Shown piece after piece: positions 2,405 to 40,600 of a stretch of 64,000 bases of DNA. A program made the translations under genes and the position numbers. The notes beneath the pieces were generated by a model that was not told the origin of the DNA, searched no databases, and saw only the letters and a program-made list of their open reading frames with translations. Positions within the stretch are counted from its first letter, which is position 1, and every line of letters begins with the position of its first letter. This DNA is from Ruditapes philippinarum (lineage: Eukaryota): NCBI RefSeq assembly GCF_026571515.1, contig NW_026861864.1, forward strand, positions 62,001-126,000, given 5' to 3'.

Positions 2405-2835
2405 TCAAGGATTGTTCGTACATCCCGAACGGTCCTGTACTTTGAAATTACTGGTATCTATTCCGAAAGCTTTAGCCTCGTTGAACAGTTTGGTTTTAAC
2501 CTCCTCCGTTATATTAGGTTGTCTGGTGAGAATCCATGCAAACTCGTAGTGGGTTATACCCAATACTCCACTGCACGAGTAAATAAAGGTATAATTGTCG
2601 TAGTCTGTGTCAAGAACCCAGTAATTACCGTAGGGAGCCACTGAAATGACAGATCAATCAATCAATAAAGGTTTAATGCGTACAATCAAGTACATTGCAG
2701 TTCTTATCAATAAGCAAACATTTCCAACGTAATTAATGCTATTATAAATTACACACGTTGAGACAACCACTTTAGCAAGGTCAAATCAGACTCGAAGTTG
2801 GTGCGCATTTTTAATTAATTATTTAATTAATTAAT

Positions 2836-2870
<35 letters not shown>

Positions 2871-4741
2871 TTTTTCTATCCATTTATTTTTTTTCTATCT
2901 ATTTATTTTTCTATCTATTTATTTATTACATGGAAATCTCTTGATTCAATATCTAAAACAGAAAATGTTAACATTTGAAGAGATTAACAAGATAATTTCG
3001 TTTGTAAACGGATGCTACACAAAATCATTGACGTTATATTAACGACAAGTCCAAGTATTTTGTAGGATATGGAAAAAATAGGGCAACGAACAATGAAATT
3101 ACAACCCCCTCCCAAATGAACTGTTCCCAACTTTACTCAGTGTGAATGATACAAACAATATACTTACATGATGAGAATCTCAGTTTAAGTTTGGCGGGGT
3201 TGTTTACGGCATCAGGGACAAAAGCGTCACCAACAGCTTGAATGGCTTTTCCGTCCCTGCAATCAGAACATCACATTCTCTTACTAAGTCATTCGATAAA
3301 TGGTTTTATAAACACATGCTATAAAATGATTCTTCTATATTCAAATGAAGAATTAGACTTATACATTTTTCTCGATATGAGTTAAATTAAAAGAAATTAT
3401 AATGTACGTTTTATTCAACCACCAGCTAGTATCACACATACTGTTTTCAAATCGTTACAAATGTAATTAGAAGAAGATTTCACAAGTTTATATAAAGTAA
3501 CATGAAAAAAATATTCATACTTGAATCCACTGTTGACAATTTTGATGTGGCCATCAGGCTTCAGTTCATAATGGGCTTTAGCACATGACTGACCGCTCTC
3601 GAAGGCCGCGTAGAATTTGTACACTTCGTACCAGTCCCCTAAATACTGTAAAAAAAAATGAGCCGCGTCATGACAAAACCAACATAATGGGTTTGCGACC
3701 AGCATGGATCCAGATCAGCCTGCGCATCCACGCAGTCTGATCAGGATCCATGCTGTTCGCTTACCAACCATATTACATGTAGAGAAACTGATAGCGAAAA
3801 GCACGGATCCTGATCTATGCTGGTCGCAAACGCACTATGTTGTTTTGGCGTGACGCGGCTCAAATCAAGTCTATGCTTTGTCCAAGAATCGTCTTTTCGG
3901 TTGGGTTCTACGTCGCATCAATACAGTATAGACCATATGCGACTTGCCAGTTTTACTGATGGAGGAAGACCTAAGGTGACCTTTCATGCATTATTTCAGG
4001 CACGAACAGAAAGTAGAACCAACGACATTTGGTAATCTAGCTGGATAGCTTCTTCACATAAAATAATCCAATGTCACTGTCGGGATTCGAACCCATAGCG
4101 GTGAACTTAACTAAGGACGCCCTGAACACATCGTATTTTAAAGGCCAATTATGCCAAAGTTTGCTTACAATTTCATTTTTCAAAAGCTTTTCATATTTAA
4201 TATCCCGTTCTAGTTTTCAAATAATTACTTAATTACTGACCAGCTTTTGCTAATGTTTTTTTTAACAATTTATACGATTATAGTGATCTAATATATATGG
4301 AAGTCAAATACTATTTTGTTTATATTTTGCTACATTTATGACAAATAATTTCACATTCAGCGTTTTTTCTTCTGAAAAAAAAACACATTAAACATACTTT
4401 TAAACCTTGATTTTGACGTTAAAAGCTCGTGTTTGCCCTTTCTTATGAACGACAATTGATTCGTTTCTGAGACATAATGTGCTGTTAATAATTATTGTCG
4501 TAAAAATAATCCAAAACATATTAAAATACAAAAAACAACAACCTATGTCACGGTGCCATCACTTTATTTTTAACCAATGAGGAAAAAGTATTAATGTATT
4601 AGGAATATCGCTAAACTGACTTACCCTATTTAAAGTGAAATTCTTTTGTGCGTTAACATTTGGGCATCCTCCAGATGAAAACACTTGCGCACTGGAGTAA
4701 CCGGCAAACAAGAGCAAGCAAGCAAACTGTACGGCGTTCAT
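2405..4741 (-). CDS. APOD: Apolipoprotein D-like lipocalin 1 (4 exons, 188 aa, secreted)
   Basis: Exons 4741-4625, 3645-3521, 3256-3168 and 2640-2405, all GT-AG with consistent phases 0/2/1. Protein MNAVQFACLLLFAGYSSAQVFSSGGCPNV...YLGDWYEV...PAKLKLRF...YWVLDTDYDNY...AWILTR...GC. It has a signal peptide, the lipocalin motifs GxWY, TDY and WILxR, and four ApoD-type Cys. Confidence 0.93.
3660..3861. mobile_element. Palindromic MITE with GAG..CTC ends and AAAT target duplication (Sola-like), internally deleted copy
   Basis: AAAT|GAGCCGCGTCATGACAAAACCAACATAATG...GTGACGCGGCTC|AAAT. Same family as 31778-32012. Confidence 0.75.
3895..4122 (-). mobile_element. tRNA-derived SINE (Meta/MESC-like core)
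   Basis: B-box GGTTCGAATCCC on the minus strand. Core GTGCCTGAAATAATGCA...GGTCTTCCTCCA shared with the other copies. Confidence 0.7.
4140..4490. mobile_element. TTAA-flanked element, family B (in ApoD1 intron 1)
   Basis: TTAAAGGCCAATTATGCC...AATGTGCTGTTAA. The internal ATTTTGCTAC.TTTATGA block is shared with 48695-49051. Confidence 0.5.
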
Positions 4742-4786
4742 TGTGATGAGTGTTGTACTGAAGTGATTGCAGCTAGAGTGCGACAT

Positions 4787-5619: not shown

Positions 5620-6388
5620 TCAAAAGCTCTGAATCGAGCTACATTGGAAGTCAATAGCTCTGAATCGTGCTACATTTAAAGTCAACAACTCTTAATCGAC
5701 CTACGCTTGAACAAAGCATCTCTTAATCGAGCTATATGTACATTTGCAACCAATAGTTCTGACTTGAGCTACACTTGAAGTCAATAGCTCTTAACCGAGC
5801 TACACTTGAAGCTTATAGGGCTAAATCGAGCTACATTTGAAGCCAATAGCTCTGATTTGAGCTACACTTGAAGTAAAAAGCTCTTAATGGAGATATCGAG
5901 CTACACTTGAAGTCAATAGCGCTAGATCGAGCTACACTTGAAGCTAATAGGGCTGAATTGAGCTATACTTGAAGCCAATAGCTACTGAATCGAGTTACAC
6001 TTGAATCCAATAGCTCTGAATAGAGCTACACTTAAAACCAATAGCTACTGAATCGAGCTATACTTGAAGTCAATAGCTGAGCTATACTTGAAGCAAATAG
6101 CTACTGAATCAAGCTACACTTGAAGCTTATAGCTCTGAATCGAGCTACACTTGAAGCCAATAGCTCTGAATCAAAATAGGCTTAGAGCCAATAGCTCTGA
6201 ATGGAGCTAAAATGAGGCTAAAATCTCTGAATCAGCCAATTGCTCTGAATCGAGAGCTACATTTGAAGCCAGTAGCTCTGACATGAACTACATTTAAAGC
6301 CAATAGCTCTGACTTGAGCTACACTCGAAGCAAGCAGCTCTGAATCGAGCTACATTTGGAACAAATATCTGTGAATCGAGCTACACCG
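5620..6388. repeat. About 31-bp tandem repeat (GAAGCCAATAGCTCTGAATCGAGCTACACTT)
   Basis: About 24 imperfect units between the divergent ApoD1 and ApoD2 start codons. Confidence 0.9.
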
Positions 6389-6716: not shown

Positions 6717-9284
6717 ATGGCGCTGATGAAATTTGCTGCTTTTATTCTAACTTTAAGCATTGCTTACACACAGGAAGTACACTTTGGAAAATGCAAAAAT
6801 TTTACAACGCAACCAAACTTTGATGTTAAAAGGGTACGTTTTCTATAGAAATATGCTAAACTTACTTACATTTAGGATAAAAGTTTATGTAATTTTAAAA
6901 ACTGTCACCTCAGTCGGAAACGGGGTCAAATTTAGTCACAACCTGACTAAAGTTCAGATCTATACTTAAGTAACTTCTGGTCTATGTAGGAGCTGATTTT
7001 AATCAAATTGATTAAGTCAAAAGTGACGAATATTTGCCCAAAGTTATTCGTTAAGTAGTCAATCTTCTGTTTTTTTCCATTCTTTTATAGTATAAACCTA
7101 TATATGTATATAGTCAAGTATTTAGTGAATTTGATTATATGAGTGGTGTCATGATCCGGTCTAGATAAGAAAAATAAAAAAATGAAATAATTCGTAACAA
7201 TGCCAACATGTTTAGAAATGTGACCGATGACTTCATTTGGCCTAAACAAATATTTGTATACTTCATTTTGCATTGACTACAACCCAGCCATTAATGCATA
7301 CAGGATTTATGCTTGCAGTGAAATAATATATGTTTATGAAAGGCAGGAAACTAATACATAGACAAGTCATACGAAAAAGTTATCATACTTACTTATAAAT
7401 GAAAGAAATCATACTTTTATTCGTAAATGGAAGAAAATCAACCTTACTTATGAATAGAAAAATAATCATACTTACTTAATAATAGAAGAAGAAATCATAC
7501 TTGCTTATAAAAAGAAGAAATCATATTTACTTATAAATGGAAGAAATTATAATCACTTCTAAATGAACAAAATCATACTTATCAATGGAAGAAAACATCC
7601 TTTCTTATAAATGAGAGAATTCATCATAATTTCTTATAAATGAAATACATCATACTTATAAATGGAAGAAATTTATCTTTTTATAAATGAAATAAATCAT
7701 ACTTACAAAATGGAAGGAATCATATTTATAAATGGTAGAAATAAATGGAAAAAATCATACTTACTTATAAATGAATGAAATCATACTTATGAATGGAAGA
7801 AATCATACTTTCTTATAAATGGAATAAATCATACGTACAAAATGGAAGGAATCATATTTATAAATGGGAGAAAACATATTTACTTATAAATAGAAGAAAT
7901 TATACTTATAAATGGAAGAAATCATGCATACTTATAAATGGAAGAAGTTATAAATATTTTTACAGTATGCGGGAGGCTGGTATGACATAGAGAAGACTTA
8001 TTTTGCTGGTCAGATGAACAAATCTTGTGTCAAAGCTGAGTACTCTTTGAGAGATGACGGTAAAATAGACGTGCTAAACCAAGATTACACGTGCGTATAT
8101 ACCATGTACACTATAATTACAAAGTTATTCTTTATATTTTAGATGCTCAAAAATAAGATTTTTTTGGAATAAAAATTGACGGCGTTTTGAATTCATTCCC
8201 TATTCAAACATATTTAATATATATTAAGCATAATTATTAATTCCGATTTTTCTAATTTTCGTTTTCCTATTCAATTCAGTATGTTCATTTTTATCTCTTT
8301 GTTCAAATACATTATTTTTGTTTTATAAAAAATTCTTTTTATGATATAAAGACCTTTTCAATTAATTCTATTTTAATCACGTGGCTGTAAATTATTATTA
8401 GAGGATATTTGTTAATTTAATATTTTATGCTTTCTTTTCACTCAATAGGGCAGAATTACACGAAGAAAATACGACAGGAATTGCATTTTACAAAGATCCA
8501 AACGTTAAGTCCAAGTTAACTGTCAAACTGGGAAGTGAGTATAAATTATTTCTTTGAAAATTTAAAGGCCCATTATGGCAAGCAATTCAGATTTAAAGTT
8601 TCATTTCTCATTTTAGGGAGGGGAGGGGCATAAGAAAATGATATAATAATGGACGGTTTTATATGGGACGGCTTTTTAATATCATGTCATTCCCAAGTAT
8701 TTTTATTTATCATTATTTTGTTATGCTATATTCCGTCTAGGCCAGTTATTGCTTTCTGCGTAACCATAATAGCGGAGTTGTACAGTTATATACTCTGTTT
8801 GGTTTTACGGCGCACCAACACAGATTAGGTCATATGGCGCCGAAACAAGAAAGATAATTTTGGCTAACCTCGGGAGATGCATAGTCTCCAATAATTCGAA
8901 CTCATTCAGTCGCCTCTTACGATCACGCAGGGTTAAACGCTGGCTGCAATAGTGATTCCTGAGTCCGTACAGGCAACCCCTCAGCCACAGGGGGGCGTTA
9001 TGGACTCTTTTCATTATTTATTTTATTATCATTTTATTTTAATTTTAGCATCTCCAGAAGCAAATTACTGGATCGTTGAGACAGATTATGACACATATGC
9101 TTTAATTTGGTCCTGCGCTGAGCTCGAGGGCATCGCACACGCTGATATTGGTTGGATACTTGGCCGAAAACAAAGACTTGACGAAAATCTCATAACGAGG
9201 CTAAAACAGAAGTTGACAAGCCTCGGTTTGAATTATGAAAAGTTCTACAGAACTAAACAACCTCTGGATACATGTCCATGGTAG
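6717..9284 (+). CDS. APOD: Apolipoprotein D-like lipocalin 2 (4 exons, 187 aa, secreted)
   Basis: Exons 6717-6833, 7966-8090, 8449-8534 and 9049-9284, GT-AG, phases 0/2/1 as in paralog 1. MALMKFAAFILTLSIAYTQEVHFGKC...YAGGWYDIEK...KSKLTVKLG...YWIVETDYDTY...GWILGR...DTCPW. AATAAA at 9313-9318. Confidence 0.92.
7365..7950. repeat. Degenerate 22-27-bp tandem repeat (ATCATACTTATAAATGGAAGAA)
   Basis: Fills the 3' half of ApoD2 intron 1 up to about 15 nt from the acceptor. Confidence 0.85.
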
Positions 9285-9409
9285 TTGTAATGAAATAATT
9301 GTAAATGTGAGAAATAAATGTAACAATCACACAAATATGATATTGTTTTATATTACTATCCCCATTATCCATCTTCGTCCATGTGTCTTTGAGTTGATAA
9401 TGCAGGTTC

Positions 9410-16195: not shown

Positions 16196-16202
16196 TATAA
16201 AT
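16196..16202 (+). promoter_or_regulatory. TATA box of ApoD-like 3
   Basis: TATAAAT about 59 nt upstream of the ATG at 16261. Confidence 0.5.
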
Positions 16203-16260
16203 ACACGCTTTAAATACTCATACCTGACCAGCTATACCAGAGGTACCGACCGGATCAACG

Positions 16261-18345
16261 ATGTCACCTCTTTACGTCTTTGTAGCGTTCATCGCAGTCT
16301 GTCATGCTCAAGTGCCTCATCTTGGGAAATGCCCGGATGTTACAGTTGTTCAGAATCTCGATGTCGCAAAGGTCAGTTATCATATTTTATGAATAAATGA
16401 ATAAATAATTAAATAAATAAATAAATAAATAATAAAGTATAAAAATAGGAACGAGAGTACATATCATCTAATAATTGGTTCAATTTTTAAATTAATAACC
16501 AGTTTAAGAGTTATTTTAAGAATATTTACAATAAAGAGCTATATATAAAACTCACAATGTGTACTAGTATGTAATGGTTGCTCGTTGTCTCTAGCGAAGC
16601 ACGCCAAACAGCGCGTTGTCGTGCGGCGCGTTGTCGCGATTTCGCCCTGTCGCTTGGCTTATAAGCCAATCCTTCGATTTGAACCGAGCGACAATGTGAC
16701 ATCGCGACAACACGCCGCACGACAACGCGCCGTTTGGCGTACATCGTTAGCGACAGGACGACAAGACGAAAGTCCGACAACGCGCCGTTTGGCGCTTTGT
16801 CCTGTTGTCACTAGCGCCAACACGACGCACAAAAGCGTTCCAAATCAGCCAATATAGTATGTTGTTGTAAATTTAAACATTGCAAAGTTTAATCCAAACT
16901 TCATAGTTAAACTAGTAAATAAATTAGTATTTTATTCCAATCAAACATAAACTCTTGTAACTATAATTTAAAAACATTTTTGTTTTCAGTATCTAGGAGA
17001 TTGGTATGAGATTAAGAAGTTCTTTTTCTTCATCGAGGGCGCAGAAACCTGTATCCGTGCTAATTATAGTTTAAAAGATGACGGTCACATTCAAGTTTCT
17101 AATAGAGGTTACCGGTGAGTTAAATGATTTGTATAAATCACTTACTCTGTCATGTCTTTATGCTACTTTATCTGCAGTAGAATTTGACATTATTGGGGAG
17201 TTTTTTTCTTTGCTATTTTAGGTGTGACAGTTTATGATATTTAACTGTATTTGTATATTAAAATGTATTTCCTAATAAAGGTGGCTGCTACTCTGAACTA
17301 GTGGACTAATTTTGAGAAGTAAATCTGACCCAGTGTTGCCATGTGTTCCTCATGTATATGATTATTGAAGTATACCCAAAAATTATGTTAAAAATGGAAA
17401 AATATTTTAATATGCCAAAAGTCAGGGGGGCCCATTTTGGGGCGGGGCCGGGACGTACCCGGGGGACGCCCGCCATTGGTGTTTTTTTTACCCCCCAAAG
17501 TTTAGCAGTGCCCCTTTGAAAACAAAAGCCGTAAAATTTCCCAAGGGGTAATTTGGGGGGTTTAGGGGGAAATACAAAAACTTTTTAAAATCCTCATTAA
17601 AGTGTTTTTTTCTTTTAGTACAGCTGGGCTAAAAATAAAACATCAAACCAAAGACTGAAAAGCCCCAAGTTAAAAGGGGAAAAATTAAATGGAAACTGTT
17701 TTTATATACCGGTTGTTTTTCTAAACATCAAAAGGGTTGTCTGATTGAAGACTCAAATTGTGAAATCTTCCTAAACCCCCTTAAAACCCTTTAAATATCT
17801 AAAAATGGCCCCTTGTCCATCTTTCATATGCATGCATTCAACTATTTAGGGAAAAAATAAAATATTTAGAGACTATGCATTCAACTATTTAGGGAAAAAA
17901 TAAAATATTTAGAGACTATGCATTCAACTATTTAGGGAAAAAATAAAATATTTAGAGACTAAAGAGCAAATAACAGCGCAGACCATGATCAGACACCATG
18001 GACCTGGCTGTTGATCATGACCGGCACTGGTCGCATAGGCAGATCCATTCCCTAAAGGTCAAACTTCTAATAATAGTAACTGGTGAACTGACAAAACATA
18101 CAATATTTTCAGGGTCACCACGTGTTCCATATTGGATTGTGGATACCGACTATGATAACTACTCTCTCGTGTGGTCCTGTACTGACTTAGGAGGCTTTGT
18201 GCAGGCAGACTTCGCCTGGATCTTAAGCCGAACCAGAACACTCGACTCCCAGATTGTCGACAAACTCATTAAAACTCTCGGATCGTTTGGTGTCAACACG
18301 TCTAGTTTCCGGGATACGGTACAAGATAATTGTCCATCAGAATAA
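16261..18345 (+). CDS. APOD: Apolipoprotein D-like lipocalin 3 (exons 1, 2 and 4 intact; exon 3 not recoverable)
   Basis: Exons 16261-16371 (MSPLYVFVAFIAVCHAQVPHLGKCPDV...), 16990-17114 (YLGDWYEIKK...ETCIRANY...) and 18113-18345 (PYWIVDTDYDNYSLVWSC...AWILSR...DNCPSE*). Exon 2 ends in phase 2 and exon 4 starts in phase 1, so an exon of about 86-89 nt is required. I found no clean candidate. Confidence 0.8.
16572..16854. mobile_element. MITE with TA..TA ends and internal GTTGTCG/CGACAAC repeats (IS3EU-like)
   Basis: Flanked by direct repeat TAGTATG (16565-16571 and 16855-16861). GC-rich with inverted sub-repeats. Lies in ApoD3 intron 1. Confidence 0.6.
17832..17960. repeat. Three perfect 43-bp tandem copies
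   Basis: ATGCATTCAACTATTTAGGGAAAAAATAAAATATTTAGAGACT x3. Confidence 0.95.
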
Positions 18346-22260: not shown

Positions 22261-22269
22261 CTGAACGAA

Positions 22270-24612: not shown

Positions 24613-27600
24613 TCATAACTTTGACTTGAACCTGGATGATTCCTGGCTAAGTATGGTTTTGACTATTTCGGTAGCTTCAATGGCAGTGCCCCAACTCAGT
24701 GCCACCCCGTTAGCACCGTGTCCGTAATTATGCACAACCTGCAAAACCATATAGTTTTGTGAAAAAATAGTTTCTTATCATGCTTTATTTCTCGCTTAAT
24801 TATTATTTATTTATAGAGAATCACCACCTGAAATAATATTCAGGTGGCTTACTGCCTTTGAGAGGAAATAAATGTACACTTTCAATTTGGATTATGTGAA
24901 AAATGATAGTTAGGCTATCAAATGAAAGTATTGAAAGCAAAAACAAAAAACGGGTTATTATCGGTAAGTAAACCCACGGTGATAGCCTGAGGGACTGCAG
25001 TAAAGCTCATGAACACAACTCTCGGTGCTTATGGAATCCCTAACGCTATAGTATGTGCGTCTGGTACTTTTAGTTTAAAAAAAAACCTCCCCGAAAATTA
25101 TCTAAGCCTTCATAACAGAACAGAGAACAACAAAAAAGAAAGAAAAAAGGAAGAACTGTAATTGTGTATGCAATCTATGTTAGACCCAACCTTTAACTGT
25201 TTTCCATTGCATGATAGATCTTCTACTTCCAACCTAATAAATGCCCTGTGTGGTCTCAGTCCAACCCATTTGTTTATAACCTCAGAATTCTGGAAATATA
25301 TGTCATCATTGTTTGAAATTAACTAAATATTTCAGTCATAAATGGCATTTGAATTTTGAGAAACGAAATCTGAAATACATATATAATCCATCGCCCATGC
25401 ATAAAAAATATATTACGGTATTTGATGATCAGCTAGACAAATCAGTGTTGACTTGTCAGTTCCTTACTAAGTAAAACCAAGCACGAATAAAATGTTTAAT
25501 TATCCGTTCATTTAATACAGACGCCACAAAATGTGCAGACGAGATTGTAGTAGGCTTGTGTAAGAAAAAATAGCAACAGAAATATTAAATTAGAATACTT
25601 TGAGCCCGGGAAGAAGATTAACACATCTTGATTTTACGTCATCAAACCATTCCCAACCGCCAGATGTTTCATACTGGTCTTTTTGGCGCGTGCCCCCTAG
25701 TACAACATTGTCCTGTCTGCAAATATTGTTGCAAAGAAAAATATTATAAAAATTATGTATAAAAAAACAATAAAAAAAACAACAAATGGTGGTTTATATA
25801 CCATCATGCTTGTTTGTTTACTAACAACTACAGTAATTAACTTTGAATGCAACGTATATTGTAAAAGAAACAATAGTTTCGTTCCTCTAATCAACAAAAT
25901 GAAAACATTACATGACGTTTTCATGAACTCTATTTCTGCGTGCTTGTGTAGCATCATCTTTAACACGGAGCTCGAGATGGTAAGATTGTGTAGAATCATG
26001 TTTTAGATGTACCTCTAAATATACTTGATCAAACAGACTCACCCTGGGTAAATGTAACTGGAAGCATCATCCCAAACATAAAAATGCTTGACCCATGGTG
26101 CTGCAACCTGTATATACAATTTTTGAAATATAACTTAATAATTATGTTCTAGTAACAAATCATTCTCAAACACATAAATATATCCTCAGTCAGTATATAG
26201 TTATTGCTACGATTAAGAAATTTGAAATGCAAAAACTTGAAAATCACGAAAATACGACGACCAAAATGCGAAAACTCAAAAATACGATGGTGAAGATGCG
26301 AAATCATGATGACGAAAACTCGATAATTGTCGACTAGAAGTATTTATTTGTTTGTTTGTATTTTGTTTGTTGCTTTTTTATGTAAATGATTTGAAATTTT
26401 AAGAAACAAAACTTACCCTGATCAAATGTCCTCTTACAGGAAACACTTTTTTATCATTCAAGAGAGTCGACGAGCCAAAACCGGTACAGTTCACAAGCAG
26501 AGAACATTTTCCTGCAAACTATAAAAAGTTGATATTTACTTCAATTTTTGATAATGTTTACATCCACTGCACGATATACCGGTTCATTCTGATTGAATAG
26601 TTAATTAATTGGTGTATTGTTTAAAAGATAATAGAAGATATATGTGAGCAAACAACTCAAAAACATTGAATATGAGACTGTGTCAGCTTATGAGATCATT
26701 AAAAGAAAATTATGATCTTTTTTTCCCCGTCAAAATAAGGATCTTTTGATATACATTTTGTACTTACTTCAAGTATCTCGTTGACTTTCCTCTTTTCTAT
26801 GCGACCACCTCTCGAAACAAACCTATAATATCGTTAAAAATGCTTTCTTTGTTGTCCTTAACGATCTAACATTATCTACAGGTGTACTTTCAACATGATA
26901 ATACATAGTATTCTCTAACCTTACAAATATATGTTTTTACCTTCTTCTAACAACTAGTATACAAAACTGGGGTTTCTTAATCATATAATGAAATATCAAG
27001 AAGACCAGCATTGTTTACTCAACTGATAAATATAATAAATATATACTGAAAAGAACACAAACCTTTTTGTTAACCAAGGCAAGTATCTTCTGCATTCAAT
27101 CATCAAACTTGTATATTTCCACCCAAAACTTTATAACAGAAATAAATTGTTTAAAAATATAACACAAAACATCAAGCCTGTAGTAATAAAATGATATTAA
27201 CAATTTTATAACATGATTAATATATTGTTTAATACATTTAAGCAGTTACATTGAGAATCGTTCTTGGAACATCAACAAGAATGGCTTAATAAACTGATAC
27301 ATAATATGTTATTAATTTGGAGTGAAGCAGAAAAAAACGTACAGTCAAACCTGGGTTAATGACCATCTCTGAATAAAGAAAACCCTGCAAATAAAGACTA
27401 CTTTTTTTATAAAATGAAGTAACCTCCAAATAAAGACAACTTGTCTATAAAGGCCAGTATCTGTCTCTTCCCTGGAAGACCTTTGTTCACAGGTTTGACT
27501 GTATCTGGGTAATTTACGGTTACTAGGAAATTAAATAAATATATAGATCTAATTGGATAATTATATTACCTAAAATTTCCAGGCAGATCGGCAAGCTCTT

Positions 27601-30600
27601 TTTCTGTCAATTCAGTGATACCGTAGTGAAATCTTGGGGGCTAAATAAACAATGTTGTCATATTGACTGTACCAAATTTTATTAATTTACAGATGATACC
27701 TTGGTCTTTATTGCACAAAACGCCATCAACTCTTTTAAAATTATTATGATTAATGATAACTATAAATTTTCTTACAACAAACATGCACCTGTTAGTATCG
27801 GTGCATCAATCGGAGCACCTTGTTTATTATTCAAAATAACCTCGCACTTTAAGTAGTTCCAGCACGTGGTTATAGATGTAGAGAAAAACACAAGGTGGAA
27901 TCTTTGTTAAAACATAACGAATGTACAATATATATTTGACATCCAAGTTCGGTAAAATAATGATTAAACATATGTCTTACAAACATAATCAATTTAAAAA
28001 TACTCGCTGATGTACAATTAAAACCAAATCCAAAATAATGTTATCAGGACTGGTACGTACACTTCCGGTTTCTGCAACCGTCGAAATCAGTATCCGGAGT
28101 TTGACGGAAAGGGTCGAAAAGATACGAAAGTCGGTTTGTATTCAATGATACGTGACTTACAATCATTATACAATTATTTTAGTTATATGAACTTTACTGA
28201 TATTTTATTGTTATTGGAATGTAAAACGGACAATTAGATATCTATGATACTGTGCTATTAAAACTACACAATCGTAACTGAAAATGGTTGCCTGTATATT
28301 TTGTTAAAATTTTATTTTATTAATCAGAATAATTGAAATGTCGATCAACACTTGTATGTTCCTTGTAAAAATTCATGTACGTAATTAATACTAGAAAAAA
28401 ACTTTACAAAAGGTTCTTGTCTGCAAGTTAATAAAACCATTGAAGCAAAGATGTTGCTAAACTCACATTTGAGCCTTTGTTTGCAAAATGGTAGCCTGAT
28501 AGACGTATAACGCCTGTTTCACTGGGATCATCCTCTACATTCAATGTGTGATACCATTTAAATGAATCCTGACACCATGTCCTTAAAGAAGACAAGAAAT
28601 AATTAATACCAATCAGAATGCCAGTAGACATTAAGTGTGGCTACATTGATGAAATACAATAACTAGTAAACTACTTGTGTTATTACATTGATAAAAGACT
28701 ATAACCAGTTAACTACTTGTGTGGTTACATTGATAAAAGACTATAACCAGTTAACTACTTGTGTGGTTACATTGATAAAAGACTATAACCTGTAAACTAC
28801 TTGTGTGGTTACATTGATAAAAGACTATAACCAGTAAACTACTTGTGTGGTTACATTGATAAAAGACTATAACCAGTTAACTACTTGTGTGGCTACATTG
28901 ATAAAAGACTATAACCAGTAAACTACTTGTGTGGTTACATTGATAACATACATAAAACCAGTAATATTAATTTTGTGATTACACTGATGTTGCACAACAT
29001 ATGAAGTCAGTATTTTTAGTATGATAACAGGAAAATGGTAAGCTATTGATAGGTCTATACTTATCACATACAGAAAGTCAGTTAGGTGTGATTACATTGA
29101 TAACAGACAGTAAGTCAGAAAACTGGGGCGTCAAGTCGCAGACATGAAGTCACTTAACTTGAAGCAACTTCACTGATAAAAATCAGGAAACCTATAAGTG
29201 CGACTATATTTCTAAAATTATTTGTGTTATTACACTGAAAACAGACATGAAACCAGTAAGCTATAGTTGTGATTACATTGATAACAGACTCGAAATCACT
29301 TACATGTAACTATTTGTGTGATAACACGTTGATAACATAGAGAAGTCAGTTAGCTAGCTGTTGCTACGACCACATTGATCACAGACAGACAGCCAGTAAA
29401 CTACGGGTACTGCATGGATCACAGAAGGCAGTTTACTACAGGTGCAACTTCATTGATCACAGACAAAATGCCAGTAAACTGCATGTGCGACTATATTTAT
29501 CACAGACAGAAAACCAGTTAACTAAGTTTGCGACTACTTTAATTGCAGGTGCAATTTCATTGATCACAGACAGAATGCCAGTCAACTACAGGTGCGACTA
29601 TATTGATCACATATATAAAACCAGTGCGACTGCATTGATTACAGACATAAAGCAGGTTTACTACAGGTGCGACTGCATTGATCACAGGCAGAAAGCCAGT
29701 TAACTACGTATGCAAATACTTTAATTACAGACAGAAAGTCAGTTAACTACATGTGCAACTTTATTGATCACAGACAGAAAGCCAGTAAACTACAGGTGCG
29801 ACTATAATAATCACAGACAGAAAACCAGTTTACTACGTGCGCGACTACATTGATCACAGACAAAAAGCCAGTTAGCTACATGCGCAACTTCACTGATCAC
29901 AGACAGAATGCCAGTAAACTACAGGTAAGACTATATTTATCACAGACAGAAAGCCAGTTAACAACGTATGCAAATACTTTAATTACAGACAGAAAGCTAG
30001 TTTACTACATGTTCAACTTTATTGATCACAGACAGAAAGCCAGTAAACTACAGGTGCGACTACAAAATGCGACTACAATGATCACAGACAGAACACCAGT
30101 TTACTACGTGCGCGACTACATTGATCACAGACAAAAAGCCAGTTAGCTACAGGCGCAACTTCACTGATCACAGACAGAATGCCAGTAAACTACAGGTAAG
30201 ACTGCAAAATGCGACTACAATGATCACAGACAGAACACCAGTTTACTACGTGCGCGACTATATTGATCACAGACAAAAAGCTAGTTAACTACAGGCGCAA
30301 CTTCACTTCAAATAATCACAGCAAGAATGCCAGAAAACTACTGTTTCGGTTACATTGATCACAAACACGAAATTTGTACGACTATATTCATGATATTCAG
30401 AAAGCCAGTAAACTTCAGGTGCGACTACATTAATCACAGTCAGAAAGCCAATAAACTACAGGTGCAACATCATTGATCACAGACAGAAAGTCAGTAAACT
30501 ACAAGTGCGACTTCATTGATCACAGCCAGTAAGCCAAAAAAACTTCAGTTTTGACTACATTGATCACCGACACGAAATTTGTACGACTACATTGATCAAA

Positions 30601-32779
30601 GTCAGAAAGCCAGCAAACTTCAGGTGCAACGTTATTGATCACATACAGAATAACAGTAAACAACAAGTGCGACTACATTGATCACAGACAGTAAGGTGCA
30701 ACTTCATTAACCACAGCCAGAATGCCAGAAAACTACTGTTTCGACTACATTGATCACAAACACGAAATTTGTACAACTATATTCATGATAATCAGAAAGC
30801 CAGTAAACTTCAGGTGCGACTACATAAATCACAGTCAGAAAGCCAATAAACTACAGGTGCAACGTCATTGATCACAGACAGAAAGTCAGTAAACTACAAG
30901 TGCGACTACATTGATCACAACCAGTAAGCCAAAAAAACTTCTGTTTCGACTACATTGATCACCGACACGAAATTTGTACGACTACACTTATCACAGACGG
31001 AAAGCCAGTTAACTACATGTGCGACTATATTGATCACAGACAAAAAGCCAGTTAACTACAGGTGCAACTTCATTGATCACAGACAGAAAGCCAGAAAACC
31101 ACTGTTTGGACTACATTGATCACAGACAGGAAATGTGTACGACTACATGTATATTTATCACAGTTAGAATGCCAGAAAAAATATTTGTGCGGCTATATTG
31201 ATTACAGATAGAAAGTAAGTTACTAGTAAGTATTGGTGCGAATTATCACATGCAGAAAGTCAGTTATCTTAAATGCGCGACTGAACTGATTTAAACAGTC
31301 AATTGGTTATATCATATGTATACCAATGAACAGGTTTATTGTATGTTTATGCTGTATAAACGCTTGAAACTTGAAAACTTGGTCAACTATTGTAAATAAT
31401 TATCACAAGTGGAAAACCGGTAGCGTAGAACATGACTATATTTATATGAAACAATGAATCCGTACACTAGCAAAACCAGGACATTAAATTAACTTCGCTA
31501 CTTATTTTTCCCCAATTTGTTTGAACGACGTTAACTTCAAGTCCATTAAAGCAAATTGACATGTTTCCTGTGCGAGCACCGCATGACAATGAGATAACAT
31601 ACCATTAATGTGCAGCTATGAAGTCCGGTTTTTTTTGTTGGTTTCGCGATAACCGTCATGTAGCCGACACTTGTTGGCTTGTTTTCCGTCCTAGCGATAC
31701 TTCAGAAGACACCAAGAAACTAACATTAATTTAGCAGCCACAACAGGACCATGTTGCACTAAGCAGTTTTATGAAATGAGCCGTGTCATGACAAACCCAA
31801 CATAATGGGTTTGCGACCAGCATGGATCCAGACCAGCCTGCGCATCCGCGCAGTCTGATCAGGATCCATGCTGTTCGCTATCAGTTTCTCTACTTGTAAT
31901 AGGGTTGGTAAGCGAAAGGCGTGGATCCTGATCAGACTGCGCGGATGCGCAGGCTGGTCTGGATCCATCCTGGTCGCAAAGTCATTATGTTGGTTTTGTC
32001 GTGACGCGGCTCAAATGTCTTCGTCGCTATTTCGAACAAAGTGCTCAACATAATACTAGTAATATAATAAATATTGTTTTAGATTTATTGGGGTTGATTA
32101 TTTAAGATACACTTTGGGGTCAGACAGTGACCCCCTCTTGTTCAGCATTAGCTTATTCTCAGTTACTTTTAGCATATAATCCCAAGTGGGCTCAAAATTG
32201 GTTTCATTCAATTTCCACGCGAATTAAAAAATCATGTTTATAATCAATTCCCTGGGATTTTTACTTCAATATTAAGATATATGTTAAAATGATAAATGTT
32301 CTTTTTTATTGGCGAGGCCCAAGCGTATGTGCCCCTTACTGCATCTAACCCTTTAACCGGTATGTATTTGAGACATAATCGATTGATCAATATGAGAATC
32401 AGTGTTGTCAATAACAACAACAACATAAAATACAATACATGCCTTTCTTCTAAATAATAAATTTTAAATCTACGTGTGTCACTGAAATAAAATAAATGTT
32501 TAATTAAGCTACTTGTAACTTGCTTATATGCATTTTAAGATATAAAATAGAACGTGTACAGGCTGTGTAAACTATACTAAAGTACCTGTATTGTTGTAAA
32601 CATTTCACCGGTGTTTTCTCCACAGACGGTCGGAATATTCCTGCCGCTCCGTCGCTCGTTGTATCTTTAGTGAACTTGTCGGCGATTAATGTCACTTTTC
32701 TATCAGGTAACACATCCTGAATTCTTACTGCCGTTGATAAACCGACCACTCCAGCACCAAGTACAACTATATCATACAT
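24613..32779 (-). CDS. DDO: D-aspartate oxidase (DAO/DDO family FAD oxidase), 10 exons, 336 aa, peroxisomal
   Basis: Exons 32779-32586, 28581-28467, 27640-27570, 27128-27063, 26822-26768, 26518-26417, 26107-26043, 25716-25599, 25289-25191 and 24738-24613. All are GT-AG and in phase (1011 nt). Motifs: GAGVVG (FAD binding), TTSDGAAG, VNCTG, PVRG, YIYPG, LGGTRQK, GLRP, HNYGHG and C-terminal PTS1 SKL. YIYPG and GGTRQK resemble DDO more than DAO. Confidence 0.92.
28636..31280. repeat. 42/43-bp satellite in DDO intron 1
   Basis: Homogeneous 42-mers at 28636-28960. 43-mers (GTGCGACTACATTGATCACAGACAGAAAGCCAGTAAACTACAG) at 29360-31200. Confidence 0.92.
31778..32012. mobile_element. Palindromic MITE (Sola-like), full copy in DDO intron 1
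   Basis: AAAT|GAGCCGTGTCATGAC...GTCGTGACGCGGCTC|AAAT with long near-perfect arms. Confidence 0.8.
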
Positions 32780-33892: not shown

Positions 33893-34412
33893 AAAATGCT
33901 TCACTAAGTACAGTTGGGGCATAGTGAGAATAATATTGCTTTGATTACGAAATATAACGCCTTTCTAGTGCGTTCAGCTCACATGACTGATCAAAATACA
34001 ATATAAATATGTATAGAATCAATATTGTAGTACCACTTTAATAATAACCTGTTTTTGTATATTTGGACACCGCATTATTCATCCTTGAAATAACCGCATT
34101 TTTCTGTTGTTTTCGTTTATTTCAGTAACGTCGGTCGAAGAAAGTTGGGTTTATGCGTTTAAAAAAATTGAAGAAAAAATTAAACGTACAGATCGACTTA
34201 CTAATATATTGAGACCATTGCACCTATCTAACTGGTACTTAAGACATAGATTGACATAGCATCATCGCAAATAAACCAGTTCCGTCATCTTGCAAAATCG
34301 CAAAGGAGCCAGTTCTGTTAGTTATGCATTTGCGCACATTTTTAGGGTATGGTTTTAACTTTCATTTTTTAAATATTTTTTTGTGAATTCTTTTATTATA
34401 ACTTTTGAAAGT

Positions 34413-34472
34413 AGGCGCCAGACCTCCCTCTTGAATCTAGGGCAATGGACCAACGGTAGAGGTCTGGCGCCT
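34413..34472. repeat. GC-rich 14-bp perfect stem hairpin
   Basis: AGGCGCCAGACCTC ... GAGGTCTGGCGCCT. Confidence 0.8.
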
Positions 34473-35851: not shown

Positions 35852-36430
35852 AACAAGAGCTGTCTGTAGGACAGCACGCTCGACTATTCTTAGTGCTTGA
35901 TTGTAAAAGAGTCTAAATAATGTAAAAAATTTCTAAGTTAACAAAAGGGTCAACTTTTTCCATGTTACAGTTATAGGAGAGAGTCCTATTATAAAAGAAG
36001 TGTATAAAATTTCAACTTGTTTCAAAGTCAGGTGTCAATGGAATTTGAAAATATCTGAGTAGTTATGTGGCATGCAAACTTGAAAGTGAATTTTAAGTCG
36101 AATAAGGAAAAAAATCCGTTTGCTTGATAGAGTTACCTTCTCCTGTCTTCAGGTTTGGGGCATGATGGTGAACAAGTGTTTCAAAGTTTCAATGGACTTT
36201 GAATGTCAATGGACTTTGAAAATATTTGAGGTGGTACACAAACTTTAACATAAATTCTAAGTCGAAAAAGGGGCAAAATTCTGTCAAAATGCTTGATAGA
36301 GTTACCTTCTCCTGTCTACAGGTTGGGGGTATGATCTTGAACAAGTGTGCAAAGTTTCAAAGCCATATGTCAATGGACTTAGAAAATATTTGATGTGTTA
36401 CAAAAACTTTAACATAAGTGGTTACACCGG
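35852..36430 (-). mobile_element. Helentron/HINE-like non-autonomous element with internal tandem units
   Basis: AACAAGAG terminus with hairpin GCTGTC-TGTAG-GACAGC. About 170-bp internal repeats (TGCTTGATAGAGTTACCTTCTCCTGTCT...TGAACAAGTGT). Confidence 0.55.
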
Positions 36431-36579
36431 AAAAAGACTTTCACTAACGTCATGTAAGTCACTGATTTACTTATCAAACAGAGCGTTTTCGTTAAAAATA
36501 GAAGACAAATACACAAAATGAGATATTAATGACATATTCCGTTCAACTTTAAAATTTATGACATCTCAGTATTACATCA

Positions 36580-39093
36580 TCAACAGTGAATGTCCGACTT
36601 GGATACCAAACATTTTAAGATTAGTTTTGATGGGTCAGTGATATATTCTATAACACCCTCACGCCCTTGAAGTGTGGAGACGAAGAAACTTGCCATCACA
36701 CCCTGAACAAATTGACGATATATGTCAAGTCTTGTGTTGTTTGTCGTCTTACAGAAGTGGGTCACGTGACAACCTTTAATAGATTATAATCAAGAAATAA
36801 TATATTTCAAAAGTTATTTTATCGCTAAGTTAAGTCACTGTTTGGAGTTCGAATGTCAGGAATTATTTTACAAGTACTATCTGTCCCTGTATCTTCAATA
36901 GGGAAAATGCACATAAGCGTCCTGGTGCCAATTTAAAATGTTCTATAAAATTGATAACTCCTACTTAGGACTTTGTAACTCCTACGTAGGAGATAAAAAG
37001 CCTAATTAAGAGTTTATAACTCCTACGTAGGAGTTTTTAACTCCTACGTAGGACTTTTTAACTCCTACGTAGGACTTTTAAACTCCTACGTTATAAGTCC
37101 TACGTAGGAGATAAAATAGCCTAATTAGGAGTTTGTAACTCCTACGTAGGACTTTATAATTCCTTCGTAGAAGAGCGCTTAAAAAATCCTGCGTAGGAGT
37201 TACAAAGTCCTAATTAGACTTTTTTTTATCTCCTACGAAGGAGTTACAAACTCCTACGTAGTACAAACTCCTAATTAGGCTTTTATATCTCCTACGCAGG
37301 AGTTTATCATTTTTTTAGAACATGTTAATTTGGCACCAGAACGCTTTCGTAAAAATGCGAGTGGTGTTAGAATAAATATTAATTAGTCAATTATTTAATC
37401 AATCAATAACAAAATACACTGTTAACTAAGATAACAACACTTTTTAAAAGTACTGAGTAATGTGTCCATACATTTTCAAGCAACAAAGCTTATCAAATGT
37501 TTAAACACACCACCTTGTTCTCCAAAGAAACGTGTTTCACAAAAGTCGGAAATTCAGTAACGACATCTCCCTTAAAATATCTTATTTTCGAAGCTTTAAA
37601 GAAAACTAAAACTATACATGTAAAGTAAAAGATTTACAGAAAAAATATAGCATGAACAATAATTGACATAATACATGTATTACATAACAAATAACTGACA
37701 ATTATCTGAAATTGGTGAAATTGAAAATCAGAATTCATTGACATTATAAGATATACCAAAGACAGTTACCTTCCCAGCCAAGCGGATCCAATATGTCACA
37801 ATGACCAAAATCCTGGGAAAAAATTATCAAGAAAATAAGATATGTTTTAACTGCAAATTTAAATTTATTTTATAAAAGATAGAATGAGTTTTCATGTTAC
37901 AAGTACTTTGCAAAGCATTATTAATTCATCCATTTACCTAAACATCTTCTTAGCCAAAGTTTAATATTATAGGCATTTTGCAAAGCCATCGCCTGAAATA
38001 TGTCTTTGAGTGTAGAGAGAGAAGAAAATATAGAAATATTATATTCAGACATGCTGCGTAATGTTTCATGCGTAATACATTAATTACTATTAATGGCAAC
38101 ACCACTGTACATAACTATTCAGTAGAGAAGATAATATTCTAGGAAAAATAATCTATATTTTAACACTAACATACCGCTGCTTCTATGGCAATTCTGGGAC
38201 ATTTCCACTGTTCATAAAACTGTTCGAAATCATATCCTTTAATATTACAAGGTGGGAAACCCTCCTCGGCCAGTTGTGTACCATACATTAGACCGGGTAT
38301 TGTATAGTTTACAGGTTGTCGGATTATCTGACTGTATGGCTCCAGGAATGCCGTGGACTGTGAAATAATACATTTCATTATTTACAATTTTATTTACATT
38401 GAATTTGTAAAACTGAGTAAGTCAGCAAGTTATCTTGGACAAAGGGAGCCGGCACAGTGTTTGGGAAGCATATAAAATACTTATTTGAACACCTGAACAC
38501 ACTAGAATAAAAGTTCTTACCATTACATATTGTATAGTCTATATGATATTTAATGATAAGATTTTTTTCTAGTGTTTTCAAGTGTTCAAATAAGTATTTT
38601 ATATGCTAGCCAAATACTGTGCCGGCTCCCTATGACATTGGAGGACTACGAAAAATATTAATAGAAACGATTTGCACTCGAATTTAATCACAAACTATAA
38701 TGTCAATTATTTTACATGATAATGAAGTACGTGAAAGTGATGACATCACAGAAATACTAGAAAATCATTGGATCATTTAGAATGTGTTTCCAGGACACAT
38801 CTTAATCCTTGCTCTTTCAATACAGACTTAATTAGTGCGGACGCCACGATACACTACCAAGAAGAAAAATTAAATTCATTTGAAAACTTAAATTATACGA
38901 AATCTGTAAAATGACAAAATATTTACTAACTATAAACGGATATTTCTCCGTTTCGATCATACGAATGGAAACATCACATCCGGCTGAATGGCACATCAGA
39001 CCAACGTAGTCCCATCGTGGTACAGACACAGTTTTATTGTCCATATATTTCATTAACTAAACATTGGTAAATAAACAAGAAAATATATAAATA

Positions 39094-39127
<34 letters not shown>

Positions 39128-40600
39128 TAATAATATATAAATAATAAGTTTACGACTTTACAATTTTCGAATCGATGGTGAAATAAGCCAAACGAGAATA
39201 CATCTGATAAGCAAAAGTTTGTTTGTTCATTTTGTTGTTTATTTTTTCCTTTTTTGATTGGTTTTTACGTCGTACCAACACAGAACCACCGAACAGAACC
39301 CTCAAGAATTCAAGATAAAGAAATTCATTCCAGTAACTGTTGTTACGGTAGCTTTAGCTATTTTTTAATGGAGTCTCTCCGGCTGTATAAATTATATACA
39401 TGTACTTTTATTGCAAAAATGTTTCATTTGTGAAATATTCTTTTACACTGATATAAAAATAATAATAATGATTAAAAGGTCTTACAAATTCAATTTCTTT
39501 GAAGTACTTGTCAATGTCTTGACCAACAGTCGGATTCAATCGTAATCCACGGTGCATCAGTGGGTAATCATAGTCCACGCCAAACACGAAGAAGCCATGT
39601 GACGCTAGTTTGGTGAGAAATATACTGTAGAACTCGGCGGGGACAAGTGTGTTTAGGCCACCGAGGAAATATATCACTGCGTAGTCGCCAACTTCCAGTG
39701 GGAAATATACTTAAAAACATAGTATATTGTCATTACAGCAAAGTCAACATCATACAAACACTTGGCTAAAAGAGTGTGTGAAAATATAACTTCGAACGTT
39801 TCCGATAATTAATTTCTTTCTTTTTTGTGAGGGGGAGTACGTGTAGTTGTCAAAAGTTTCAGCAGCAATTATCGGACTATAAAATAATGAAAAAACGTTA
39901 GACAATCTTTAAAAATCAACTGAAAACTGGACCAAAGAGGTGTGTCTTTCGGCCTACTGTTTATCAAACTTATTCTTGTAATATTTGTTTTGTTTTTCAT
40001 ATCAAATTCTACTGTTTTTTTTTTTGGTTTTTTTTTTAATTTTTTTGCATCACAACGTGAATCTTATTTTTATACAGATAAAAAGTCTTACCTTTCACAT
40101 GTTTAGGGCTGGCATCCACTGTAATAGATACTGTCAACTCCCCAACTTTCAGTGGACCATCATTGTACGGAATACCTTGGTCAACATAGAGCGCTAAACC
40201 TGTCGCAATATTGAGAAAGAGATTTTTCAGCTTCGTTAATGATATTTCATATATTGAATTACTATTATACAAAAATATGTCAGTTTAAAGAGAACTTTAA
40301 ACGTAAACATAAAGCTTTGAATATACATTTGAATGAAGGGTTCACTTCTAAAAATAACGGCCGTTCCTTTGTGAACCCTTCATTCAAATGTCCATATTGC
40401 ACATGGCAATCAATAAGATTTAACTTAAATTTTAAGATTTTAAATTTCAAATAGACTTGCAACGTTAATTAAGCTATATATAGGTAGCTGTTAAACATTT
40501 TCTAAATTTAACGATGATGATTTTCATTAACAAAAATAGACAGACTTAATGTAGACTTACCGCAAGTCACCAGACTTAGAAAAAATAATATGTCCTTCAT
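36580..40600 (-). CDS. Chlorophyllase-like secreted alpha/beta hydrolase, 7 exons, 305 aa
   Basis: Exons 40600-40561, 40199-40092, 39709-39486, 39056-38931, 38357-38175, 37812-37770 and 36773-36580, all GT-AG and in phase (918 nt). Motif order matches plant chlorophyllases as I recall them: P...GDYAVIYFLGG, FYSIFLTKLASHGF, CHSAG (GHSRG-like), FLEP (IDP-like), PGLMYGT, FPPC, DFGHCDILD, CK, RQFVQGVMASFF. N-terminal signal peptide; sequons NKT, NYT and NNT. Confidence 0.85.
36910..37351. mobile_element. MITE with internal CTCCTACGTAGGAG palindrome array and a 6-bp target duplication
   Basis: TIRs ..AAGCGTCCTGGTGCCAA / TTGGCACCAGAACGCTTTCGTA, with AAAATG on both sides. Lies in the last intron of the chlorophyllase-like gene. 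Confidence 0.75.
38440..38636. repeat. Fold-back inverted repeat (about 65-bp arms)
   Basis: AGGGAGCCGGCACAGTGTTTGG..GCATATAAAATACTTATTTGAACAC and its reverse complement. Confidence 0.85.
40325..40391. repeat. Perfect 21-bp stem hairpin
   Basis: ACATTTGAATGAAGGGTTCAC ... GTGAACCCTTCATTCAAATGT. Confidence 0.9.

What the first reader, a model, noticed from the sequence alone, without database searches (positions are those of the whole stretch)
2405..40600. Candidate dietary-pigment handling locus: chlorophyllase plus three ApoD-type lipocalins (and a peroxisomal oxidase)
Seen: within 38 kb lie three secreted ApoD-like lipocalins, DDO and the chlorophyllase-like gene, with no other intact gene recognised between them. 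Known: invertebrate ApoD-like lipocalins bind tetrapyrroles and carotenoids (insecticyanin/bilin-binding protein, crustacyanin), and the silkworm gut chlorophyllide-binding protein is a multi-lipocalin. Chlorophyllide and pheophorbide are phototoxic, and pheophorbide-type compounds accumulate in molluscan viscera. Inference: the hydrolase may generate chlorophyllide/pheophorbide and phytol while the lipocalins sequester or carry them. Gene adjacency in animals is weak evidence, and DDO has no known role in such a pathway.
Basis: inference. Interest (0 to 1): 0.7.

Follow-up and report, generated by a model that had tools for sequence, protein, structure and literature searches.

The report
Clam chlorophyllase-like enzyme beside lipocalin genes
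In the Manila clam, a gene for a likely secreted, chlorophyllase-like enzyme lies next to three lipid-carrier (ApoD) genes and an amino-acid oxidase, but other clams appear to keep these genes well apart, so the grouping is likely an accident of gene shuffling; the enzyme, which may strip the tail off dietary chlorophyll, is the part worth testing.

Summary
All five genes are real. Four have complete reading frames with GT-AG introns. ApoD3 lacks exon 3 in this assembly, in a homopolymer-garbled patch, but an RNA contig carries it. RefSeq matches name the species as Ruditapes philippinarum (21, 27).

The pathway-cluster reading is not supported. The ApoD trio is an old tandem array. The chlorophyllase-like gene shares its chromosome in 6 of 6 chromosome-scale clam and oyster records, but lies 28 (Mactra), 551 (Mya) and about 3,500 (Dreissena) records away; record order is only a proxy for position (27, 32, 33, 38). 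At least four more ApoD-like genes lie elsewhere (71). Co-expression stayed inconclusive.

The hydrolase is the better lead. Its predicted fold best matches wheat chlorophyllase (TM 0.81). It has a Ser-Glu-His triad where plants have Ser-Asp-His, keeps the active-site cysteine pair, and has a changed pocket. It occurs across molluscs, Lingula and lancelets. Animal chlorophyllase-family genes are already noted in print (PMC12804077); my ten searches found no activity test. Chlorophyllone a, a pheophorbide-related pigment, was first isolated from this clam (PMC7281735).

Odds: chance adjacency about 0.8; digestive dephytylase about 0.45.

The parts
2405..4786 (-). ApoD1, likely secreted ApoD-like lipocalin. 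Exons 4786/4741-4625, 3645-3521, 3256-3168, 2640-2405. RefSeq XP_060556542.1, 188 aa from the second ATG.
   Evidence: (PF00061 41.2 bits, cut-off 23)
6717..9284 (+). ApoD2, likely secreted ApoD-like lipocalin, 187 aa. Exons 6717-6833, 7966-8090, 8449-8534, 9049-9284.
   Evidence: PF00061 37.6 bits; identical to the RefSeq protein P0041
16261..18345 (+). ApoD3. Exons 16261-16371, 16990-17114 and 18113-18345. Exon 3 is unreadable in this assembly but present in an RNA contig.
   Evidence: PF00061 38.9 bits; run X1, record 1
17401..17800 (.). Homopolymer-expanded low-quality patch, likely an assembly error hiding ApoD3 exon 3.
   Evidence: 92 and 109 base runs per 200 nt against a mean of 140; contig depth of run X15 is 15.7 in bin 17263-17683 against 49-108 in the DDO-gene bins 24420-27366
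24613..32779 (-). D-aspartate-oxidase-like flavoprotein, 10 exons, 336 aa, C-terminal SKL (a peroxisomal signal, recalled).
   Evidence: PF01266; exon 1: human DDO 6RKF E 1.4e-12 against DAO E 4e-7; spliced contig in X1
36580..40600 (-). Chlorophyllase-like alpha/beta hydrolase, 7 exons, 305 aa, hydrophobic N-terminus, predicted triad Ser148-Glu172-His231. RefSeq XP_060556545.1 / LOC132717156.
   Evidence: (PF07224 79.4 bits, cut-off 26)

Best explanation
The window holds an old three-gene ApoD array, a D-aspartate-oxidase-like gene and a chlorophyllase-like hydrolase gene that likely became neighbours through rearrangement within one ancestral bivalve chromosome, not because they form a pathway; the hydrolase is likely a secreted digestive esterase that would remove phytol from dietary chlorophyll or pheophytin. 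Shown: gene structures, family assignment, spliced transcripts for the hydrolase, ApoD3 and DDO, and same-chromosome placement in six bivalves. Inferred from record numbers: the genes are far apart in other clams. Predicted: secretion, a chlorophyllase-type fold, and a Ser-Glu-His triad. Untested: substrate, tissue and ApoD ligands. The ApoDs most likely act as general hydrophobic-ligand carriers, and DDO as an ordinary peroxisomal D-amino-acid oxidase. Confidence splits: chance adjacency about 0.8; dephytylase role about 0.45.
For: Synteny. Orthologues of ApoD1, 2 and 3 carry consecutive accessions in Mya (XP_052817966-968), and two of the three are adjacent in Mactra (ACF0H5_006366/7) and Dreissena (KAH3774984/87). 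The hydrolase is ACF0H5_006395 (28 tags away), WAR12211 against WAR11660 (551 away) and KAH3771470 (3,514 away). In Ruditapes the true neighbours are 3 accessions apart. Same-length chromosome records hold both genes in 6 of 6 species with a cluster-type ApoD and a chromosome-scale record: Mactra, Mya, Dreissena, C. virginica, O. edulis and S. echinata. Linkage without gene order is the published norm (PMC8809688, passages). At least 4 further ApoD-like genes sit on 2 other contigs. Enzyme. Best solved match is wheat chlorophyllase 8FJD by sequence (E 4.6e-42, next hit 1.3e-15) and by fold (TM 0.81, next 0.68; model pLDDT 92.5). Ser and His are kept in 27 of 27 rows of the mollusc, brachiopod and lancelet set (26 named, 1 unnamed), and Glu in 26 of 27. 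Cys203 and Cys249 align to the wheat active-site disulfide Cys220-Cys264. Full-length protein on contigs of about 1.0-1.2 kb implies spliced mRNA. Chlorophyllone a was isolated from this clam (PMC7281735, passage). The family is lost repeatedly in land animals, with a dietary shift suggested (PMC12804077, section 7).
Against: Record-number distance is an indirect proxy. RefSeq XP numbers can be about 34,000 apart on one chromosome (S. echinata), so only GenBank tag order was relied on, and it was not checked against coordinates. In Mactra the gap is only 28 tags, so regional linkage persists. No other venerid could be tested (no Mercenaria hydrolase record), and DDO synteny was not tested. Both the hydrolase and ApoD3 are silent in run X24, which fits co-expression as well as anything else. 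Against the dephytylase role: identity to wheat chlorophyllase is only 23%; the GHSxGG motif, Arg146, Phe71 and the Ca-site residues are replaced; the gene is kept with a full triad in Babylonia, a carnivore (diet recalled); homologues occur in amoebae and bacteria; and even plant chlorophyllases have disputed roles and may have other substrates (PMC8702186, passages). Pheophorbides in clams could also come from algal enzymes in the food.
Confidence: 0.6

Rival explanations
1. One reading: a functional pigment-handling cluster, in which the hydrolase makes chlorophyllide, pheophorbide and phytol and the neighbouring ApoDs bind them, with the adjacency held by shared regulation and perhaps recently assembled in venerid clams.
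For: Only DDO lies between the hydrolase and the array. The genes share a chromosome in 6 of 6 testable species and are 28 tags apart in Mactra. Sandercyanin is the second-best solved match to ApoD1 (E 4.6e-27); that it binds biliverdin is recalled. This clam contains chlorophyllone a. The hydrolase and ApoD3 are both undetected in run X24.
Against: Not adjacent in Mactra, Mya or Dreissena by record order. The ApoDs are single-domain and score best to human ApoD (E 1.1e-32) against crustacyanin 3.4e-13, bilin-binding protein 2.2e-12 and insecticyanin 7.9e-12. There are at least 7 ApoD-like genes at 3 or more loci. In X2, DDO contigs were laid but none on the first and last ApoD3 exons (contigs cannot prove absence).
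Confidence: 0.08
2. The hydrolase is a general secreted lipase or esterase (galactolipids, phytyl or wax esters, cutin-like polyesters, or a defence role) of an old eukaryotic family, named chlorophyllase only by similarity; the neighbourhood is incidental.
For: Pocket and oxyanion-hole residues differ from wheat. Cutinases and PETases are the next structural matches (TM 0.6-0.68). The gene is kept in a carnivorous snail (diet recalled), and homologues occur in amoebae and bacteria. A Biomphalaria gene labelled chlorophyllase-1 is down-regulated 4.7- to 37-fold in a schistosome-infection study (PMC13619432, table passage; orthology not checked).
Against: Chlorophyllase is by far the best sequence and fold match, and the chlorophyllase-type acid position and active-site cysteine pair are kept. 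Repeated loss in land animals fits an algal-diet role.
Confidence: 0.4

Closest known systems
Wheat chlorophyllase (PDB 8FJD; PF07224; Jo et al., PMC10011514)
   Same: Alpha/beta hydrolase fold (TM 0.81); Ser, acid and His at aligned positions; His before the nucleophile; cysteine pair aligned to Cys220-Cys264; C-terminal GH-x-D-x-LD segment.
   Different: 23% identity; Glu for Asp; C-H-S-A-G-C for G-H-S-R-G-G; Phe71 and Arg146 replaced; no His76/Asp255 Ca site; no Cys270 equivalent; extra cysteines; activity unknown.
Database-annotated animal chlorophyllase-like proteins (e.g. C. virginica XP_022337363, M. gigas K1QVM5, Lingula, Branchiostoma; family noted in PMC12804077, PMC13163145, PMC4169597, PMC12897141)
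   Same: Same clade and the same Ser-Glu-His pattern; 47-68% identity across named bivalves.
   Different: Nothing substantive: this is the clam orthologue. No biochemical test turned up in my searches. The spiny-lobster protein falls in a separate clade of the quick tree.
Human apolipoprotein D (2HZQ) and sandercyanin (5EZ2)
   Same: Single lipocalin domain, four core cysteines, hydrophobic leader; best solved matches to ApoD1.
   Different: The clam genes are bivalve-specific paralogues, 34% identical between ApoD1 and ApoD2; ligands unknown.
Insect polycalin / silkworm chlorophyllide-binding protein, bilin-binding protein, insecticyanin, crustacyanin
   Same: Lipocalin fold; pigment binding in these proteins is recalled, not tested.
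   Different: Polycalins are 600-1,800 aa multi-domain proteins that top the search only by summing repeats. The single-domain pigment binders score 20 orders of magnitude below ApoD.
Human D-aspartate oxidase (6RKF)
   Same: Best solved match for exons 1 and 8, including the GGTRQK segment; C-terminal SKL.
   Different: Substrate untested; three other DAO-family matches lie elsewhere in the genome.

Membership tests
Chlorophyllase (PF07224, EC 3.1.1.14) | Pfam score above the curated cut-off | tested here: met
   79.4 bits against a cut-off of 26
Chlorophyllase (PF07224, EC 3.1.1.14) | Fold closest to chlorophyllase | tested here: met
   AlphaFold model pLDDT 92.5; 8FJD ranks first, TM 0.81
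Chlorophyllase (PF07224, EC 3.1.1.14) | Ser, acid and His at the chlorophyllase positions | tested here: met
   S148, E172 and H231 align to S145, D172 and H248; geometry not measured
Chlorophyllase (PF07224, EC 3.1.1.14) | Asp as the catalytic acid and a G-H-S-x-G-G motif | tested here: not met
   Glu in 26 of 27 rows of the animal set; motif reads C-H-S-A-G-C
Chlorophyllase (PF07224, EC 3.1.1.14) | Active-site disulfide cysteines (wheat Cys220-Cys264) | tested here: met
   C203 invariant and C249 at least 90% conserved in 52 rows, aligned; the bond itself is not shown
Chlorophyllase (PF07224, EC 3.1.1.14) | Pocket and oxyanion residues Phe71, Arg146; Ca site His76/Asp255 | tested here: not met
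   Leu68, Ala149, Glu76 and Leu238 at the aligned places; the paper says the Ca site is poorly conserved among plants too
Chlorophyllase (PF07224, EC 3.1.1.14) | Hydrolyses chlorophyll or pheophytin to phytol plus chlorophyllide or pheophorbide | not testable with these tools
   needs an assay; filed here as chlorophyllase-like, not as a proven chlorophyllase
ApoD-like lipocalin | Lipocalin domain, GxW and TDY motifs, four core cysteines, hydrophobic leader | tested here: met
   (leader judged by hydropathy only)
Tetrapyrrole- or carotenoid-binding lipocalins | Closest kinship to BBP, insecticyanin or crustacyanin, or a polycalin multi-domain build | tested here: not met
   ApoD1 only: best hits are human ApoD, then sandercyanin; all three genes are single-domain
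Tetrapyrrole- or carotenoid-binding lipocalins | Pigment binding | not testable with these tools
   needs binding assays
D-aspartate oxidase | Closer to DDO than to DAO; peroxisomal C-terminus | tested here: met
   (two exons tested; the exon 8 match is weak, E 0.14)
Functional (pathway) gene cluster | Close linkage conserved in relatives | tested here: not met
   0 of 3 clams with ordered GenBank tags show adjacency (28, 551 and 3,514 records); proxy only; DDO not tested
Functional (pathway) gene cluster | Co-expression | tested here: inconclusive

The most novel reading that the evidence does not exclude
Aquatic invertebrates have their own true chlorophyllase, a secreted Ser-Glu-His enzyme that makes the pheophorbide-type pigments of shellfish viscera, including chlorophyllone a in this clam; in venerid clams it has been drawn next to the ApoD array, whose products carry or shield the phototoxic products. 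The enzyme half alone has about 0.45 probability; the figure given is for enzyme plus functional cluster.
Probability: 0.08. Interest if true: 0.75.

Novelty: new member of a known kind. Interest (0 to 1): 0.3.

Why it matters
If the hydrolase dephytylates chlorophyll, it would be an animal-encoded chlorophyllase; my ten literature searches found none tested. It would supply a candidate host enzyme for pheophorbide-type pigments in shellfish and give a mechanism for the published loss of this family in land animals. It is a small protein with a confident model and an obvious assay. The cluster claim matters much less: as things stand it is an ordinary case of conserved chromosome content with shuffled gene order.

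Tried and rejected
1) Other chlorophyllase copies in the genome: the two PF07224 hits on C14653 and C12235 are PAF-acetylhydrolase exons (PF03403 E 1e-25) on two near-identical contigs. A search with exon 5 finds only this locus, so the gene looks single-copy, within the limits of that search.
2) More ApoD genes next to the window: none in contig positions 2,001-62,000 or 126,001-186,000.
3) Runs X21 and X22 are labelled RNA-Seq but show GATC-ended chimeric joints and thin cover over introns. They look like Hi-C and were dropped. X23 and X24 (one study, tissue unknown) show no hydrolase signal.
4) X1-X14 hold 0.13-0.17 of the words of the hydrolase stretch.
5) Mytilus: the hydrolase and the ApoD found lie on different chromosomes in 4 of 4 species. 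That ApoD falls outside the cluster clades, so it is not counted against linkage. S. cucullata has them on different small scaffolds, and Mercenaria gave no hydrolase record.
6) RefSeq XP distances were rejected as a measure of adjacency.
7) Transfer from plants, suggested for crustacean genes in PMC13163145 (passage), was not tested: the quick tree (the careful run did not finish; 102 rows of 280-600 aa plus named hits) included no identified plant sequence.
8) No complex prediction was run: adjacency alone is no reason for it, and chlorophyll is not an offered ligand.
9) Literature: 10 searches. Gene-ID search gave 0 papers, and chlorophyllase plus digestive gland gave 0. Searches were swamped by papers lacking the word chlorophyllase. 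PMC4348758 was not held. Most subscription papers and unsearched supplements could hold tissue data.
10) The scan's own notes: nothing on this sequence or place.
Full report
Observation. The window is G000:C10351:62001-126000 of a 1.41-Gb genome. Proteins encoded here match RefSeq records named Ruditapes philippinarum on a contig of the same length, 636,749 bases. Exon models from coordinates give complete frames with AG/GT boundaries for ApoD1, ApoD2, DDO (336 aa, ending SKL) and the hydrolase (305 aa). Pfam supports each. ApoD3 has three good exons, but exon 3 falls in a homopolymer-expanded patch at 17401-17800. An RNA contig from run X1 is spliced across exons 1, 2 and 4 and has 84 unmapped letters in between, about 86 after boundary overlap, which is the length the frame needs. 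So the gene is most likely intact. A Pfam scan of 138 further ORFs found nothing above cut-off between the five genes.

The hydrolase. It scores 79.4 bits on PF07224. The closest solved structure is wheat chlorophyllase 8FJD, by profile (E 4.6e-42, against 1.3e-15 for the next hit, a cutinase) and by fold (TM 0.81, 23% identity, against 0.68). Against the wheat numbering in PMC10011514 (passages), S148, E172 and H231 align to the triad S145, D172, H248, and C203 and C249 align to the active-site disulfide. The elbow reads C-H-S-A-G-C instead of G-H-S-R-G-G. Phe71, Arg146 and the Ca-site residues are replaced. Ser and His are kept in 27 of 27 rows of the mollusc, brachiopod and lancelet set and Glu in 26 of 27; Nucella has Lys. 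The N-terminus is hydrophobic and there is no later membrane segment, so secretion is predicted. Relatives occur in clams, oysters, mussels, scallops, unionids, abalone, caenogastropods, Lingula and lancelets, and more distantly in amoebae and a spiny lobster. The nearest Atlas cluster has 91 members, all eukaryotic, most often molluscan. Proteins of full length on contigs of about 1.0-1.2 kb show that the gene is spliced and transcribed. It looks single-copy here: the other two PF07224 hits are PAF-acetylhydrolase exons.

The lipocalins. Each clam gene has its own orthologue group in other clams: ApoD1 is 69-78% identical to Mactra, Mya and Dreissena proteins, ApoD2 is 78% to Mercenaria and 61% to Mya, and the ApoD3 pieces are 68-80% to Dreissena, Mya and Mactra. 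ApoD1 and ApoD2 are 34% identical to each other. The array therefore predates the split of these clam lineages. ApoD1 is closest to human ApoD, then sandercyanin, and far less to crustacyanin, bilin-binding protein or insecticyanin. Insect multi-lipocalins head the homologue search only because repeated domains are summed. At least four more ApoD-like genes lie on C5739 and C5885.

No relative genome could be searched, so I used record lengths as chromosome labels and GenBank tag order as a proxy for position. Both genes lie on records of the same length in Mactra, Mya, Dreissena, C. virginica, O. edulis and S. echinata, 6 of 6 species with a cluster-type ApoD and a chromosome-scale record. 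In the three with ordered GenBank tags the hydrolase is 28, 551 and 3,514 records from the nearest ApoD, while the ApoDs themselves are adjacent. In Ruditapes, ApoD1 and the hydrolase are 3 accessions apart. Conserved linkage with scrambled order is the general animal pattern, and those authors found no shared function among genes of a linkage group (PMC8809688, passages). Limits: the proxy was not checked against coordinates; Mactra retains regional linkage; no other venerid and no gastropod was testable; DDO synteny was not tested. In four Mytilus species the ApoD found is on another chromosome, but it is probably a different paralogue.

Expression. Four raw-read runs were laid on 31300-40800. 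Two behave like Hi-C and were dropped; X23 and X24 show depth of 0.06 or less over 37323-40800 and none on DDO exon 1. On 16000-28620, X24 shows no ApoD3 and two DDO junction reads; X1 holds spliced ApoD3 and DDO; X2 holds DDO but nothing on the first and last ApoD3 exons. Co-expression is neither shown nor excluded.

Literature. The existence of chlorophyllase-family genes in animals is in print. PMC12804077 (section 7 and supplement passages) lists the family among those lost in terrestrial lineages and suggests dietary shifts. PMC13163145 (passage) reports it in five crustaceans and speculates on transfer from plants. PMC4169597 (passages) notes an oyster SNP in it. PMC12897141 (passage) mentions it in a mussel shell-colour study. 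PMC13619432 (table passage) lists a snail copy as down-regulated. PMC7281735 (passage) records that chlorophyllone a was first isolated from this clam, probably diet-derived. PMC8702186 (passages) shows that the role of plant chlorophyllase is itself unsettled. Ten searches gave no enzymatic test of an animal member and no link to ApoD; subscription papers are mostly not covered.

Mechanism and verdict. Most likely the ApoD array and the hydrolase have ridden on one bivalve linkage group and were brought together, with DDO between them, by local rearrangement in the Ruditapes lineage (about 0.8). The hydrolase most likely works as a secreted serine esterase; my best single guess is removal of phytol from dietary chlorophyll or pheophytin in the gut (about 0.45), with a general lipase or esterase role close behind (about 0.4). 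A functional pigment cluster is not excluded but is unlikely (about 0.08). The locus as proposed is ordinary. The enzyme is a new member of a known, untested animal family with a cheap decisive assay. Interest 0.3.

Noticed in passing
window 44942-45214 (-): Last exon of an LLC1 (PF14945) family gene, E 4.2e-20; the next recognised gene beyond the hydrolase.
   Followed up: no
window 58420-58608 (+): Weak match to the SYCP2 armadillo-like domain (PF18581, E 0.0067, below cut-off); possibly an exon of a synaptonemal-complex gene in the 45-62 kb stretch.
   Followed up: no
window 12007-12540 (+): A 177-aa stop-free frame between ApoD2 and ApoD3 with no Pfam match; possibly a decayed mobile-element fragment.
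   Followed up: partly
window 17401-17800: Homopolymer-expanded patch that hides ApoD3 exon 3; likely why no RefSeq ApoD3 protein for this species appeared.
   Followed up: yes
window 31774-32018 (a similar element near 3660-3860): Very high-copy interspersed repeat in introns, with read depth above 12,000 in X21 and X22.
   Followed up: no
window 5621-6386, 7382-7952, 9377-10953, 28635-31147, 50366-51427, 62400-63659: Minisatellite arrays with units of 31, 22-26, 29, 42-43, 44 and 75/162 bases; they produce spurious long ORFs.
   Followed up: no
L018/L019 (C5739) and L020/L021 (C5885): Two further ApoD-like pairs; the C5885 pair is an inverted near-duplicate.
   Followed up: partly
L008:2866-3456 and L011:4676-5098: PAF-acetylhydrolase exon that cross-matches PF07224, present on two contigs 85-97% alike, probably uncollapsed haplotypes.
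   Followed up: yes
L003, L004, L005 (contig positions 12,001-42,000): Upstream neighbours: exons matching Sec5, RMP (PF14996) and an MSP domain; useful anchors for a coordinate-level synteny test.
   Followed up: no
P0235 (Nucella lapillus): Lys at the catalytic-acid position in this predatory snail (diet recalled), whereas Babylonia keeps Glu; it may be inactive or a gene-model error.
   Followed up: no
P0167 (Panulirus) against the mollusc clade: The crustacean chlorophyllase-like protein has a different acid motif and falls in a separate clade of the quick tree, so animals may hold two lineages.
   Followed up: partly
P0076 (Haliotis rubra) and P0281 (H. asinina): Abalone have a second, more divergent chlorophyllase-like paralogue besides the orthologue.
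   Followed up: no
runs X21, X22: Labelled RNA-Seq but look like Hi-C libraries.
   Followed up: yes
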